From NCBI RefSeq assembly GCF_002113885.1, contig NW_018480076.1:525584-589583 (forward strand): a DNA stretch of 64,000 bases, in the 5' to 3' direction. Shown here in pieces: positions 36,001 to 42,000 of the stretch. This DNA is from Mizuhopecten yessoensis (Eukaryota). Within the stretch, counting starts at the first letter, position 1. Each line of letters opens with the position of its first letter. The position numbers were made by a program.

Positions 36001-39000
36001 GGGAGCTGAGTGCTGCCAATGTCTGCATACACCACGCCATATTGCTGATAGATATAAATCTCCATTTAAATTCCGCCGAAAATATGGTGACGACATCCCA
36101 AAGGCAATCATCTCTTTCGGATCACGTGTATAACATGATTCGGACAAAAGTTCGTCACATAGTTTATAACGAATCGTAGAAGTGACCAAACGCCGCATAA
36201 AGTTGTTTTTTTCCAACTTCTTTATTATTTGTTTCTGCTTGTTGTTGTTGTTGTTGTTGTAAAAGAACGCAGCAAAACAAATGATGTTTAGAAAGGCCCC
36301 AAGATGTGTTTGTTGTTAAAAGTGAAAATGGTGTTGCTGATATTACTAATTGATTTAAGCCCAAATTCAAGTTTTAATATGAATTTTTTGTAAACACACC
36401 AACAAATGCAGATTGTGCATAACTAAATATCATGATGCGGAAGAAATCTGAAATAGAATAATAAAAATGACTTTCCAGTACCTCAAAATATAAGTCACGT
36501 GTGTACTGTTTTCAGTGCTACAGTGTATCCTTGTCTTGTGTACCGCCGGAAGTGTTATTTGAGTGTTACATGTAGCAGAGTGTCCGGTCCCGTATTAGTA
36601 TCGCTCAACCAGACGCTTGATCACGTATATAGTAGCTTGTGTAGAAAACAAGTGTCTGGTTGAACGAGACTAATTCCGTATATGTGGAGCTTCCGCGTGT
36701 TTCCTGTGTAACATATACATGTAATCTTTGCGTCAAAACCATAACAAAGTATTGTATCCCAATGGTCCTGGACGTGAGCGTTTTGCGATACTGTATTGCG
36801 TAATCAAAATGTTTTACACGTGTTTTTCGAAGATAATCGATTGTCCGGTATTGCAGTTAGTAAAATAATAACGGACGCTATTTCCTTAACGTAATCGGTC
36901 ACACAAACCATCAATCAGATTACTGCTGAGGTTTGTAAGATACAAAAAATCTCGTTACTATCATATTAAATTAGTTTAAAGTAATACAGGCATCTGTATA
37001 TACGCCATCTTAATTTATTTAATGTAAATTGAAAAGGTTAGATGTAGGTTAGATGTAGGTTAGATGTGAAGAAATTCTGCCTTTCGATATTGTTTATTTG
37101 CCCTGCGCTTCCATATTTGAATCTTTCTTATAATAAAACTGATAACATATTTGAATTATTTTTTATTAACAGGTACAAATAGTAGTCACTATGGCCACCG
37201 GAAGACACAACTACGTCATAGACCTTACTGTGATCCGATTGGCTAGCCTTAATCAGATGTTAGATCCTTGGATTTACATTCTACTCCGGAAGACTATTCT
37301 TGACAAACTGAAACTAAGTTTTAAAAAAGTCTTCTGCTTTTGTTGTCCGACTCAAGAGGTAGAGGAAGGTACAGACCAAAATGCGCATGCTCATCATCTT
37401 AGATGTTTCCGTAAGCAATACAATACTGCAGGACCGCAGCATCTGTGTCACTATCAGAACATACCGGCGGGAGTAGGGTCGTGTCGAAATCACTCAAAGA
37501 AATGTTCTAAAAGATCAGACGGAAGTAGGAATAAAAAACATTCACTTCCGGATGTTATGAGAGAGGCACACTCACTCAGTCCCCAGGGTGACTTGCTGAG
37601 ACCGGATGTTGCAGCTGGCGACACCTACAATGAAATATGCAATCAATGTCAATCAACTCATACTCATTCAAAATTAGAGAAAAAATCGTCGGTCCCGATA
37701 GAATGTGCTTACGCTAACAGTGTACTTATGGGACAACAGTGTAACCATGGTTCTGATGACGACAGTGACAGTTCAACGAGCCATGAACACTGTAACATTT
37801 GCTCGGGTGTGGAAGAGTCGCAGACTAACGATGTATTCTCCGATCCGGCGGTAGAGACCCTAGAGTCAGAGGTGTTCATGACAAAAACCACAACCAACAG
37901 CGGAGGTGGTGGAGGGGAGTCCAACAACCTTCTACAGGCTCCCGTGTCCAGTTCCCGCCGCCACCTCTACTCTGACGTCATTCCATCGTTTAGGTCATTT
38001 CGCCTTCCCAGGTATGTAGCATTAGCAAGTTAAGCCGTTTGTCGTCATCTATTTGCTCCATTTTGCTTACCATAATTAATTCAGATGATCTATTTGATTT
38101 GTTTAGAATGAAGGTAGTATTTGGCTGTTATATGAGCCGTTTCGGCGTTTATTGACTATTACGATCATTAACTGACAATAGTAAAATATTAGTGGACATG
38201 TAACAAGCGATGAATTTAAAAGTCTATAAATATTATAGAACCCGTGATTATAGATCTTGATTACTAACATCGTTAATCTCGATAAATTTTCGTAATCAAA
38301 GTAAACACCGATGACAGTGGTACGCACCATTAATTTATATCGCTTTTATATACAGACACTGGACAGTTGTGTCAGTGAACCGATTGGCCTCGCGCACTGT
38401 GGTTTTCCATGGTTGTAATCAGCTAATGGTCCTCGTTTTCTCTTTGTGGGATAGTCTGCCAGAATTGTTTAATTCAGGCCATATAAACAATTAACAAGTC
38501 TGCTGAATCTCTGCAGAGCAGTTTTGCGGCCGATTCACGATTAACACCGTAACGTTGGTGTTTTATAGACCGTCTGGTACCATATCGATCTGCGACCAGC
38601 TCGAGAAAGAAGCCTAGTTTGGTCACTAGGACCTGTGGTGCCCGTATAATGGTGAACTGATACCCAACCAGTGATTATATCATTTTGACGGGAATGTTGT
38701 CTGGGACGAAGCGATTTAGGCACCTTTGTTTCACGGGAAATAAACAGAACAGTTGCCTTTACATTAAGTATAAAAACACTTAATCAAGATTATATATTGA
38801 CCCAAGTAACGTTATTTGTGGAATGGTTTTGTTAAAAATACGCTGTAGAAAGAGCAGATTCCATTCAGACGAGTTTTTTGCTCAAAGTACGCCAGTTAAG
38901 TTTCATCTGTATTCAGTATTGATTGTATGTGTTAATACAACATAATTTGGATATGTCTAGGTTTTTGTGGAATTCGATTTAGTTTTCTGACACAAATCCA

Positions 39001-42000
39001 TTTCTTTGTGCTTGTTATGAACAAAACTTCTGGGCAGTTGATTGGTTGGCTGTTTGATTTAGGTTTTTATCATCGCCTTTTTTTAAAATGCAGGGTTTAC
39101 AGTCGCTACCATTTTTACTTTGCATTATGGGAGAGACAAAATGAACCTGTAAAGTTTTTGCATCCGGAAGAAACCGATGAATATTAGATAACTTACTTTG
39201 GACTTTTCGATTTTTCTTCTTTTTTTTTTTTTGATCGGTTTCTGACCCGATAATGTATAGCCTTCTGATGGTAACATTTTTTTTCTAATATTAAACGTTA
39301 AACCCAAGTTGTGTTTATCTTCAAAGGAACATGCACAATGTATGCTGTGCTAGTGTAAATAAAATATATATATTTTATTCGTTCGTCATGATTTAAAGTA
39401 TTGATTTGCCAACAAAACTAAATCACATTCGTTGTTTTATTAATATTTTGCAGACGAAAGAGTAAAAGGATCAAGTCAGCAACCTGATGTGTTAGCCGTC
39501 GATATGTTCAACGGGAGACAACTGTGACATTTTCTGCATTACCAAAATATCTATGTGATAATGTTCAAAGGGAGACAACTGTATGAAATGTTTTGCATTA
39601 CCAAAATCTAATATTGATAATCAAGCGTCAGTGTTGATCAAAAAGGAAAAGGTAATGCTGTAAAACTCCTCTCTGGGAAGATTTTTTGTGATTGGTAACT
39701 TAGTTGATTACTTTATTACACATTTGAAACGTTAAATCAATTATAATAATTCTACCACGTCGCAGATGAAACGATTTCAGTTTTTCTATCGATTTATATG
39801 CGAGACTGTTACACCCTGAACAAATACAAACCAAAACTTATCTACTCGGCGGGTTCCATAATATCCAGGTCCTGACCTGACTTGGCGAAACTCTTACATC
39901 GTAAGGCAATACGACTGATCGCTTGACGAATTGTTTACACGCACATAGGAACAGCCAAATTGTACAACAGATTATCTACGTTGCGCCGCTTTGTAAGCAA
40001 AAATACATTTCGTTAAATCGGACGTGGTAAAGTAGATTTTATCATCATGTAATATTAACCATTGTTTGGTATTGCAACAATATAACCCTACCAAATTCAG
40101 AAGGCACGCATAACAGTATACAGTTGTTTCATGCCTTATCAGTCAACAGTCAAAACTATTTTCCCGAGGAGTTGGGTCCCAACTCCGAGGGAAAATGGTT
40201 TTGACTGTTGACTGATAAGGCATGAAACAACTGTTTTGTTACTTGACTAATGAAAAACAAAAAGTTTCATGTCGTATGTGATGTTTAGATCTACCGAGAG
40301 ACGACCGTCAACAATCCAGTACCAAAAACGCTTGATCGTTCGATTACCTAACACGTGACCAGTCAACAGTTTTGCGGTAGCACACATTAGCTATAGTTCG
40401 TTGGTGAATTGTCTGGGAAACAGTCGAAATTGATTAAAATGCATTTATATAGCGAGTCAGGTAATAACAATGAATGACATTACCCATGTGCTGATGCCAT
40501 CATTACGTCGATGTCATGTTGTAACGTTGAATGAATACCACTGACCCTCCTAGAAGAAAACCGTTTTGTTCATTAAGTTAATGATGCATACCTTTATTTT
40601 AAGTTAAAAACTGAATTTTGGTAATTTAATCAATAATTTCAAATCTTTCAAAATGATAAATTTAAGCACTGAACTGCTTTCTGGTTGCATTCATAAAGTC
40701 AGTATATGTTGGAATTGACTACTTCCATGAAGCGCGTTGAATTTGTCATTTCCATCCGTAATTCATAATCAATTTGCCAAATGAAAGCAAAAGAATACAT
40801 CAATTAATGTTTATTGATGTTGATCATCCTCGAAATATGATTCATAATCAATTTGCCAAATGAAAGCAAAAGAATACATCAATTAATGTTTATTAATGTT
40901 GATCATCCTCGAAATATGATTCACAATATCTTACGTGTAAATGGTGAATATTTCTTAATCGTTCATATTTTGAGGAAGATCATTTTAACACAAATCAAAG
41001 ATAGCATTTGAAAGGATATATACAACCTAACTTTAACACAAATCACAGGTATAATGTGTTATGTTATATTCATCCTTAACTCCAACACTATTCACACTTT
41101 CCTTTATCATACATGGAATGCGACTATTGTCGACTTCAACGAAGTACATCTATTTCAATTCAACAATGTTGATTTGTGTAAAGAACTTAAGAGATATAAA
41201 TTCAAATCATTAATAATTCAAAAGTCATTCACTGTTGTCAAAAAGAAAACAATAGAAATAAAAGGTCGAGTTTAAATTCATATGGTGGTGGGGGGGGGGG
41301 GGGGATTAAATTGTGGTTACAGGTTTAACTATCCGTAACGTTACTGAGTAAAAAAATTACCTCGTTGAATTTTACATTATAAGGCGCGAAAGTTAACACT
41401 GTATAGCATTGTATTACTTTACACGTGTGGCGCGTGTTTTGTTGTTGTTTGTATGAGTTTATGTTTTGCCCAATATCTTGACAGTCGAATGTTGAGGTCC
41501 TGTATCTAGTGAGAATGACACTGTCTGTGATACACCATGCTTTATGTATATTGTAATAAATTATTTTTGTATAAACTCTTTGTCGTGTTATGTGTTTCTG
41601 CGATACACCACGTGTTTATAACACAAGGACGAGTCGAATTGTTGCTATTCGACCAACATGGCGGCTTCTCACAGATCTTGACCTGGGAATGAATCGTAAG
41701 AATGATAACTCTATCTACTTTATAATCTATAATGATGCACGAAACTGTTTACCAATGTCGTCCCCGCAATGTCTGTCCTGAAACCTTTCCACACATATGA
41801 CATATGCGCCATATTTGTGTTAGTGCGCTTTGGTGTTGCTCTGCTCTGAAATCTGGTAGAGTTGATGTAACATCGGATTCCCTTCTAGTGGTATTTTACG
41901 ATTACTGTTGTTATCGCTCCACTTCTGTTTACCTTCTCTTTTCGTTCCTTGTCCCACTTCAATAGTATGACATTGTATCTAGACGACAGCAGATCGAATA

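What the first reader, a model, noticed from the sequence alone, without database searches (positions are those of the whole stretch)
38005..41600. Hidden alternative last exon: two predicted C-termini, each with its own poly(A) signal
A near-consensus donor CAG|GTATGT sits at 38012, about seven codons before the stop. A good acceptor ends at 39453; splicing changes the end from LPRYVALAS* to LPRRKSKRIKSAT*, a basic tail with kinase-type sites. One AATAAA (39358) lies ~95 nt before that acceptor and another (41555, with a GT-rich downstream element) follows it, the layout of competing intronic polyadenylation and splicing. Vertebrate EP3, FP and TP diversify by C-terminal splicing, so this could be a parallel mechanism. 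It is invisible in the ORF track.
Basis: partly seen in the sequence, partly recalled or inferred. Interest (0 to 1): 0.7.

Follow-up and report, generated by a model that had tools for sequence, protein, structure and literature searches.

The report
Unproven extra exon in prostaglandin receptor
The stretch is the end of an invertebrate prostaglandin-E-type receptor gene, and the proposed hidden alternative last exon is possible on paper but not shown, because only the splice-donor motif near the stop codon and an exon-like change in base composition exceed chance.

Summary
The gene is a two-coding-exon, EP4-like prostanoid receptor. Exon A is 23838/23892-24740 and exon B is 37173-38033.

Above chance:
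- The CAG|GTATGT donor lies 22 nt before the stop. The chance of an 8/9 donor there is about 0.007.
- The 39453 acceptor has an exon-like GC step, rank 3 of 162. The one sure acceptor ranks 4.
- A purine run follows that acceptor, rank 1 of 162.

At chance:
- Acceptor motif quality: 163 equal-grade sites on the + strand, 3 of them between donor and acceptor.
- Tail length equals the median of 157 tails.
- AATAAA count is 4 seen against 3.7 expected.
- Codon usage of the ten new codons looks non-coding.

No RNA data or orthologues could be reached, so usage is untested.

My odds:
- Ordinary terminal exon, motifs unused: 0.45.
About half of that is the alternative-splicing version.
- Donor used with another acceptor: about 0.28.

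If real, it is one more case of a known kind, C-terminal splicing of a GPCR.

The parts
23838..24740 (+). First coding exon of the receptor (TM1-TM6). In-frame ATGs lie at 23838 and 23892. It ends ...CWAPLM before the donor ATG|GTAAGT.
   Evidence: Searches give the frame and sequence. Pfam 7tm_1 scores E 3.8e-33, 115.5 bits against a cut-off of 30.5. In the PDB search the best hit is EP4 at 5.1e-43, and the 22 best rows are all prostanoid receptors.
24741..37172 (+). Intron of 12.4 kb in phase 0, between TM6 and TM7. About 8.8 kb of it (24964-33774) is satellite with 38/68/76-nt units.
   Evidence: Donor at 24741 (8/9 match). Acceptor ...ttattaacag ends at 37172. Tandem arrays are and the GC skew.
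37173..38033 (+). Second coding exon: TM7 with the prostanoid Arg...DPWIY stretch, helix 8 and a tail of about 245 residues. The stop TAA is at 38031-38033.
   Evidence: Translation. Residues 17-57 align to human EP4 residues 311-351 (best row E 5.7e-08), and all 18 PDB hits are prostanoid receptors. An open frame of 287 codons has chance 2.7e-08.
38009..38017 (+). Donor-like site CAG|GTATGT. The intron would begin at 38012, in phase 2.
   Evidence: It is one of 21 sites at 8/9 or better among 4585 + strand GT sites. It is the only such site in exon B; one other site there reaches 7/9.
38012..39453 (+). Either the proximal 3' UTR or a 1442-nt intron, depending on whether the donor is used. It holds AATAAA at 38739 and 39358 and ATTAAA at 39290.
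   Evidence: GC is 0.352. It has no repeat copies elsewhere in the window, no Rfam family and no Pfam match for its ORFs on either strand.
39434..39453 (+). Candidate acceptor: 11 of 16 pyrimidines, then G, then CAG.
   Evidence: Its motif grade equals that of the true acceptor at 37172 and is shared by 163 + strand sites. GC step is +0.20, rank 3 of 162.
39454..39487 (+). Candidate coding part of a last exon: one base completing the split codon, ten codons RKSKRIKSAT, then TGA.
   Evidence: Purines are 15 of 17, rank 1 of 162. K/R count is 5 of 10, the only tail of 80 with 4 or more. Codon-usage score is -2.1 bits, like non-coding DNA.
39358..39363 (+).
   Evidence: Its downstream G+T share is 0.60, rank 9 of 66 + strand AATAAA.
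41555..41560 (+).
   Evidence: It has 10 TG/GT dinucleotides in the +10 to +50 stretch, rank 3 of 66.
40120..40234 (.). Long inverted repeat (57-nt arms) inside the would-be distal 3' UTR. It is probably a foldback or MITE-like insertion and is not part of the splice model.
   Evidence: One search gives 95% complementarity with a 1-nt gap. The fold is -98.6 kcal/mol, z -18.7.

Best explanation
The region is the 3' end of an EP4-like prostanoid receptor gene of an AT-rich invertebrate genome. I do not take it for human.

The gene has the family's usual plan. One exon carries TM1-TM6. A long intron follows. A second exon carries TM7 and a long cytoplasmic tail.

The single most likely reading is this. 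The second exon is the ordinary terminal coding exon. The protein ends at the TAA at 38031-38033. The mRNA ends at one of the seven AATAAA/ATTAAA hexamers downstream. The CAG|GTATGT motif 22 nt before the stop is an unused or cryptic donor look-alike, and the mini-exon at 39454 is a chance pairing.

Shown: gene identity, exon limits, and the presence and frequencies of all motifs. Inferred: that the donor is not used.
For: Gene identity.

The plan matches the vertebrate genes. The stop lies in the TM7 exon, and rodent EP4 has 3 exons (passages of PMC7509579). A probable acceptor ending at 23691 lies upstream of the first ATG, which suggests a non-coding first exon here too.

The review passages list C-terminal splice forms for EP3 and rat EP1 and none for EP4.

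- Acceptor grade is shared by 163 + strand sites, with 3 equal ones nearer the donor.
- Tail length equals the median of 157.
- AATAAA: 4 seen against 3.68 expected.
- Donor-like motifs window-wide: 46 against 53.6 in shuffles.
- The ten new codons score -2.1 bits by this gene's codon usage. That is inside the non-coding distribution, where 58% of open non-coding windows score as high or higher, and in the lowest 3.7% of in-frame exon windows.
Against: An 8/9 donor in the last 22 nt of a true terminal frame has a chance of only 0.0072. A real donor followed by a stop within 7 codons is expected 35% of the time. By my own rough likelihood ratio of about 15, this lifts a prior of 5-10% for a further exon to roughly even odds.

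The six read-through codons have GC3 of 0 of 6, against 0.44 for exon B. They score in the lowest 5% of exon windows, so they look intron-like.

The 39453 acceptor has the best GC step and the best purine run of the 19 equal-grade acceptors in the 10 kb after the donor. On GC step it ranks beside the one sure acceptor, ranks 3 and 4 of 162.
Confidence: 0.45

Rival explanations
1. The donor at 38011/38012 is used in some transcripts and joined to 39454, giving a basic end (split-codon Arg plus RKSKRIKSAT) with PKA/PKC-type sites. Other transcripts stay unspliced, end at the 39358 signal and encode ...YVALAS. This is a composite terminal exon in which intronic polyadenylation competes with splicing.
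For: Donor position has p 0.0072. Acceptor GC step ranks 3 of 162 and the purine run ranks 1 of 162. This is the best acceptor of 19 in the next 10 kb on both measures. C-terminal isoforms by splicing are documented for EP3 and TP (passages) and for a molluscan GPCR, the Aplysia TKRP receptor (passages).
Against: No transcript or orthologue evidence. Codon usage of the new codons looks non-coding. Hexamer density is at background. A donor this strong would tend to be spliced constitutively and to silence nearby poly(A) sites (recalled, not tested). The exchange affects only the last 6 residues of a long tail, unlike EP3 and TP. The basic tail and the purine run are one feature seen twice, and both were noticed after the fact.
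Confidence: 0.12
2. Same junction, but constitutive. The gene has a third, tiny coding exon (39454-39487 plus 3' UTR). The ...YVALAS end is only read-through into an intron and is never made.
For: In addition, the six read-through codons look non-coding (GC3 0 of 6; lowest 5% of exon windows), and the donor is strong (8/9).
Against: Codon usage of the mini-exon looks non-coding. Three equal-grade acceptors lie nearer the donor. Vertebrate EP4 genes end in the TM7 exon (passages).
Confidence: 0.13
3. The donor is real but pairs with a different acceptor. This could be another of the 19 equal-grade sites in the next 10 kb, a weaker site, or one beyond the window. The true C-terminus would then be neither of the two proposed.
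For: The donor statistics are as above. Acceptor-grade motifs occur every 393 nt. The known intron of this gene is 12.4 kb long, so long introns occur here. Open tails of 30-45 whole codons follow 38355, 39093 and 41859.
Against: None of those acceptors has the GC step or purine run of 39453. None of the 12 downstream or flanking ORFs tested has a Pfam match (0 of 10, 0 of 2).
Confidence: 0.28

Closest known systems
Vertebrate prostaglandin E2 receptor EP4 (PTGER4)
   Same: It is the best sequence match for both exons: 5.1e-43 for exon A and 5.7e-08 for exon B. Like EP4, this gene has a long C-terminal tail. Human EP4's tail is 148 residues and governs desensitisation and internalisation (passages of PMC7509579). 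The coding region is split so that TM7 and the tail lie on their own exon.
   Different: Here the tail after TM7 is about 245 residues. It has no Pfam or Atlas look-alike. Orthology to EP4 rather than to the prostanoid family at large was not tested by a tree. The review passages list no EP4 C-terminal splice forms.
Human thromboxane receptor TPalpha/TPbeta
   Same: There are two isoforms of a prostanoid receptor from one gene. They are identical for 328 residues and differ only in the C-tail, by differential splicing (passages of PMC2680961). As I recall from Raychowdhury et al. 1994, the long form arises by removing an intron from within the last exon, which is the layout proposed here. I saw that paper only as a reference entry.
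   Different: TP switches shortly after TM7 and replaces the whole tail. Here only the last 6 residues would change. TP isoforms are shown by cDNA, and here nothing is shown.
EP3 receptor C-terminal isoforms
   Same: Alternative last exons give tails of 6-59 residues after a common 359 residues, with different signalling and internalisation (passages of PMC7509579).
   Different: EP3 uses several separate downstream exons, and its donor lies just after TM7. The present gene resembles EP4 more than EP3 (5.1e-43 against 2.9e-29).
Aplysia tachykinin-related peptide receptor isoforms A and B
   Same: This is a molluscan class A GPCR with two isoforms that differ only in the intracellular C-terminus, through alternative splicing. 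Both were cloned from cDNA. Ser/Thr phosphorylation of the tail matters for desensitisation (passages of PMC11365428).
   Different: It is a different receptor family. It has experimental proof, which is lacking here.
Composite terminal exons, such as the immunoglobulin mu secreted and membrane forms (recalled)
   Same: A donor inside a terminal coding exon competes with a poly(A) site in the intron that follows.
   Different: This rests on recall only. In the known cases both 3' ends are mapped.

Membership tests
Prostanoid receptors (class A GPCR) | Rhodopsin-family 7TM domain | tested here: met
   Pfam 7tm_1 scores E 3.8e-33, covering profile positions 1-228 of 260 on exon A. TM7 lies on exon B.
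Prostanoid receptors (class A GPCR) | Closest similarity to prostanoid receptors rather than to other GPCRs | tested here: met
   For exon A the 22 best PDB rows are all prostanoid receptors (5.1e-43 to 4.7e-17). The first other protein is a rhodopsin at 8.5e-11. For exon B all 18 hits are prostanoid receptors.
Prostanoid receptors (class A GPCR) | TM7 arginine and the ...N..LDPWIY stretch (the feature's role is recalled) | tested here: met
   Query segment irlaslnqmldpwiyillrkt aligns to EP4 IRIASVNPILDPWIYILLRKT.
Prostanoid receptors (class A GPCR) | Intron at the TM6/TM7 boundary (its conservation in vertebrate genes is recalled) | tested here: inconclusive
   An intron lies there in this gene, 24741-37172 in phase 0. 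I could not compare its position with other genes using these tools.
EP4 subtype (orthology) | Groups with EP4 in a family tree | not tested
   There are only best-hit ranks, EP4 5.1e-43 against EP3 2.9e-29. I built no tree, because the protein searches that would supply invertebrate relatives were closed.
Prostanoid receptors (class A GPCR) | Binds and responds to a prostanoid | not testable with these tools
   This needs expression and ligand assays.
Alternative last exon / composite terminal exon | A donor inside the terminal coding exon that is actually used | not testable with these tools
   The motif is present (8/9) and its position is unlikely by chance (0.0072). Usage needs RNA data.
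Alternative last exon / composite terminal exon | A downstream acceptor and exon that are actually used | tested here: inconclusive
   The motif grade is ordinary, shared by 163 sites. The GC step ranks 3 of 162 and the purine run ranks 1 of 162. Codon usage looks non-coding.
Alternative last exon / composite terminal exon | Separate poly(A) sites for each form | tested here: inconclusive
   Hexamers are present at background density, 4 against 3.68 expected. The two named ones have fair downstream elements. Cleavage sites are unknown.
Alternative last exon / composite terminal exon | Both mRNA forms observed, or both ends conserved in orthologues | not testable with these tools
   No RNA or eukaryotic genome collection was available. 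The Atlas gave no usable hit for the tail.

The most novel reading that the evidence does not exclude
An invertebrate EP4-like prostanoid receptor switches its extreme C-terminus. It would do so by competition between an intronic poly(A) site and splicing to a 34-nt coding mini-exon, exchanging a neutral end for a basic, kinase-site-bearing one. That would be an independent, TP-like origin of C-tail isoforms within the prostanoid family, and a tunable phosphorylation or trafficking tag at the very end of a long tail.
Probability: 0.12. Interest if true: 0.4.

Novelty: new member of a known kind. Interest (0 to 1): 0.22.

Why it matters
If the junction is real, C-terminal isoform switching in prostanoid receptors would not be confined to vertebrate EP3, FP and TP. 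It would add a second worked example of tail splicing in a lophotrochozoan-type GPCR, beside the Aplysia tachykinin-type receptor. It would also correct the protein's end in gene models. If it is not real, the case shows how easily a donor, an acceptor, a short open tail and two AATAAA can be assembled in AT-rich DNA. Either way the gain is modest, because the mechanism is known and only about 6-10 terminal residues are at stake.

Tried and rejected
Searches and tests that gave nothing:
- Rfam on the whole window: 0 families.
- Pfam on 10 ORFs around and downstream of the region, both strands: 0 of 10 with a family. Two more ORFs: 0 of 2. One search failed on a wrong frame of mine, and I re-sent the request without that item.
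- ESM Atlas with the tail, residues 60-286 of exon B: no usable hit.
- Self-BLAST of 38012-41700 against the window found only two internal tandem duplications. The candidate exon is therefore not part of a repeat family visible in this window.

- Tail length is the median, 10 of a median 10.
- The acceptor's pyrimidine-tract grade is ordinary.
- Codon-usage score is non-coding-like for both alternative ends, so it cannot choose between them.

Literature: five full-text searches found no report of C-terminal splice forms of a molluscan or other invertebrate prostaglandin receptor. For one search, 4 of 4 papers holding all three terms were judged by title only. The salmon 'EP4 isoform' paper leaves open whether its forms arise by splicing or gene duplication (passages). 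Supplementary tables of the bivalve papers might list isoforms.
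Full report
WHAT THE WINDOW IS

The window is AT-rich DNA. GC is 0.33-0.41 in 2-kb steps. It holds long satellite arrays and few long open frames. Nothing suggests a human contig and I do not take it for one.

Of the 20 frames of 110 codons or more, two on the + strand belong to one gene.

The first frame, 23763-24773, carries a rhodopsin-family 7TM domain. Pfam 7tm_1 scores E 3.8e-33, 115.5 bits against a cut-off of 30.5, covering profile positions 1-228 of 260. 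In-frame ATGs lie at 23838 and 23892. The frame is cut by a donor ATG|GTAAGT, whose intron begins at 24741.

Against solved structures, the 22 best rows for this exon are all prostanoid receptors. Human EP4 is first at 5.1e-43, EP3 is next at 2.9e-29, and the first other protein is a rhodopsin at 8.5e-11.

The second frame starts behind the acceptor ...ttattaacag, which ends at 37172. It reads in phase 0 from 37173 to the TAA at 38031-38033, giving 286 residues. Its residues 17-57 align to TM7 and helix 8 of human EP4, including the arginine and the LDPWIYILLRKT stretch (E 5.7e-08). All 18 hits with E up to 1 are prostanoid receptors.

The remaining 230 or so residues have no Pfam family and no Atlas look-alike. 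An open frame of 287 codons has a chance of only 2.7e-08 at this window's stop-triplet share of 0.059, so the tail is coding.

The gene is therefore an EP4-like prostanoid receptor with TM1-6 on one exon and TM7 plus a long tail on the next. [quoted passage not shown] That fits an invertebrate origin but does not identify the species.

I did not build, search or fold the joined protein.

CHECK OF THE OBSERVATION

- CAG|GTATGT has its intron G at 38012.
- The split codon AGG, six more codons and TAA give ...LPRYVALAS.
- The acceptor ...ttttgcag ends at 39453.
- The first exon base completes the split codon to an Arg codon. Ten whole codons RKSKRIKSAT and a TGA at 39485-39487 follow.
- AATAAA lies at 39358, 95 nt before the acceptor, and at 41555. 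The latter is followed by ...ctttgtcgtgttatgtgtttctg.

The same strand and span also hold AATAAA at 38739 and 41257 and ATTAAA at 39290, 40433 and 41305. Three acceptors of the same motif grade lie between the donor and 39453, and two more lie before 41600.

WHAT IS AT CHANCE LEVEL

- Donor-like 9-mers (one mismatch or fewer to MAG|GTRAGT, both strands) number 46. Shuffles give 53.6 +/- 6.8.
- The acceptor's motif grade is 11 of 16 pyrimidines, Y at -3, and no AG in the 13 bases before. Of 3226 + strand AG sites, 163 reach this grade, one per 393 nt. The true acceptor at 37172 has the same grade.
- The open tail of 10 whole codons equals the median of the 157 equal-grade acceptors that could be read. 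Of those, 80 have 10 or more.
- AATAAA occurs 66 times on the + strand. That predicts 3.68 in 38034-41600, and 4 are there. Window-wide on both strands there are 137, against 118 +/- 10 in shuffles.
- A short open tail, a fair acceptor and two poly(A) hexamers can therefore be found after almost any point of this DNA.

WHAT IS ABOVE CHANCE

Donor position. Only 21 of 4585 + strand GT sites match the consensus at 8/9 or better, and one of them is the gene's own first donor. The chance that such a site falls in the last 22 nt of a given frame is 0.0072, and 0.048 for the last 150 nt. A real donor is followed by a stop within 7 codons 35% of the time.

Read-through codons. The six codons have GC3 of 0 of 6, against 0.44 for exon B and 0.58 for its last 150-nt block. 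Their codon-usage score lies in the lowest 5% of in-frame exon windows.

Acceptor composition. GC rises from 0.233 in the 90 nt before 39453 to 0.433 in the 90 nt after it. This step of +0.20 ranks 3 of 162 equal-grade acceptors. The true acceptor at 37172 ranks 4, and the probable acceptor of the first coding exon (ending at 23691) ranks 8.

Purine run. 15 of the first 17 exon bases are purines, rank 1 of 162. This is the same fact as the basic tail: 5 K/R in 10 codons, the only tail of 80 with 4 or more.

Both acceptor features were examined after the fact and should be discounted accordingly. They are nevertheless the classical marks of an exon start. 39453 is the best of the 19 equal-grade acceptors in the 10 kb after the donor on both measures.

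WHAT SPEAKS AGAINST THE MINI-EXON

I scored the ten new codons with this gene's own codon usage (565 codons) against the window's non-repeat background. They get -2.1 bits. This is inside the non-coding distribution (mean -1.66, sd 2.4), where 58% of open non-coding windows score as high or higher. It is in the lowest 3.7% of in-frame exon windows, though those windows were scored on their own training data, which flatters them.

So both proposed ends look non-coding by this test, and it cannot choose between them.

Nothing else occupies the stretch:
- no Rfam family;
- no Pfam match for ORFs on either strand;
- no copies elsewhere in the window apart from two local tandem duplications.

WEIGHING

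This part is inference. I take about 0.3 for the share of real donors that reach 8/9 (recalled, rough). I take 0.35 for the early stop. The donor finding is then about 15 times more likely if exon B is followed by another exon than if it is terminal (0.0072).

The prior is uncertain. The main forms of most vertebrate prostanoid receptor genes end in the TM7 exon. The review passages list C-terminal splice forms for EP3 and rat EP1 but none for EP4, and TP has two.

With a prior of 5-10% the donor comes out at roughly even odds of being used. Given use, 39453 is the best single partner but far from the only one. Given that junction, a donor this strong argues as much for constitutive as for alternative splicing.

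My figures:
- ordinary terminal exon with unused motifs: 0.45;
- donor used with another acceptor: 0.28.

COMPARISON WITH WHAT IS KNOWN

What it would work like:
- The TP alpha/beta pair, which is identical for 328 residues and then differs by splicing (passages of PMC2680961). The detail that the intron lies within the last exon is recalled.
- The EP3 isoforms, with a common 359 residues and tails of 6-59 residues (passages of PMC7509579).
- Composite terminal exons in general (recalled).

In a mollusc, two C-terminal isoforms of the Aplysia tachykinin-type receptor have been cloned and shown to differ in phosphorylation-dependent desensitisation (passages of PMC11365428).

Differences here: the switch would lie at the very end of a tail of about 245 residues and change only 6 residues for 10. 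The receptor resembles EP4, for which the review passages I saw list no C-terminal splice forms. The salmon 'EP4 isoforms' may be gene duplicates (passages).

Five literature searches found no report of such splicing in an invertebrate prostaglandin receptor. Subscription journals and supplementary files were out of reach.

VERDICT

If true it is a new member of a known kind and of modest interest. If false it is an ordinary gene end.

RNA junction reads, 3'-end mapping and orthologue alignment would settle it.

Noticed in passing
window 24964-33774: About 8.8 kb of tandem satellite (units of 38, 68 and 76 nt, in both orientations after 32.8 kb) fills most of the 12.4-kb intron between the two receptor exons. 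It causes the strong negative GC skew at 26-32 kb.
   Followed up: partly
window 20783-22772: A minisatellite with 80- and 175-nt periods (97% matches over 9 copies) lies just upstream of the receptor's first coding exon. It produces three overlapping false ORFs of 514-594 codons on the minus strand.
   Followed up: partly
window 40120-40234: A near-perfect inverted repeat has 57-nt arms, 95% complementarity and a 1-nt gap. It folds at -98.6 kcal/mol (z -18.7) and has no Rfam family. It is probably a foldback or MITE-like insertion, and would form a long hairpin in the 3' UTR if transcribed.
   Followed up: partly
window 39504-39621 and 40761-40927: There are two local tandem duplications: a 57-nt unit x2 at 84% identity, starting 17 nt after the candidate mini-exon's stop, and a 79-nt unit x2.1 at 97%.
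   Followed up: no
window 23682-23691: An acceptor-like ttattttcag lies 147 nt before the first in-frame ATG of the receptor. Its GC step ranks 8 of 162. This suggests an upstream non-coding exon, as the review's table implies for rodent EP4 (3 exons).
   Followed up: no
window 62935 and 63798: Two acceptor-grade sites near the window's end have GC steps as large as the true receptor acceptor (ranks 1-2 of 162). The open frame 63774-63998, which runs off the window, has no Pfam match. These could be exons of a neighbouring gene or chance.
   Followed up: partly
window 41288-41305: A run of about 15 G lies between the AATAAA at 41257 and the ATTAAA at 41305. It gives the 41257 hexamer the top G+T downstream score without being a typical downstream element.
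   Followed up: no
window about 56.2 kb: There is a single N in the window. I left it as it is.
   Followed up: no
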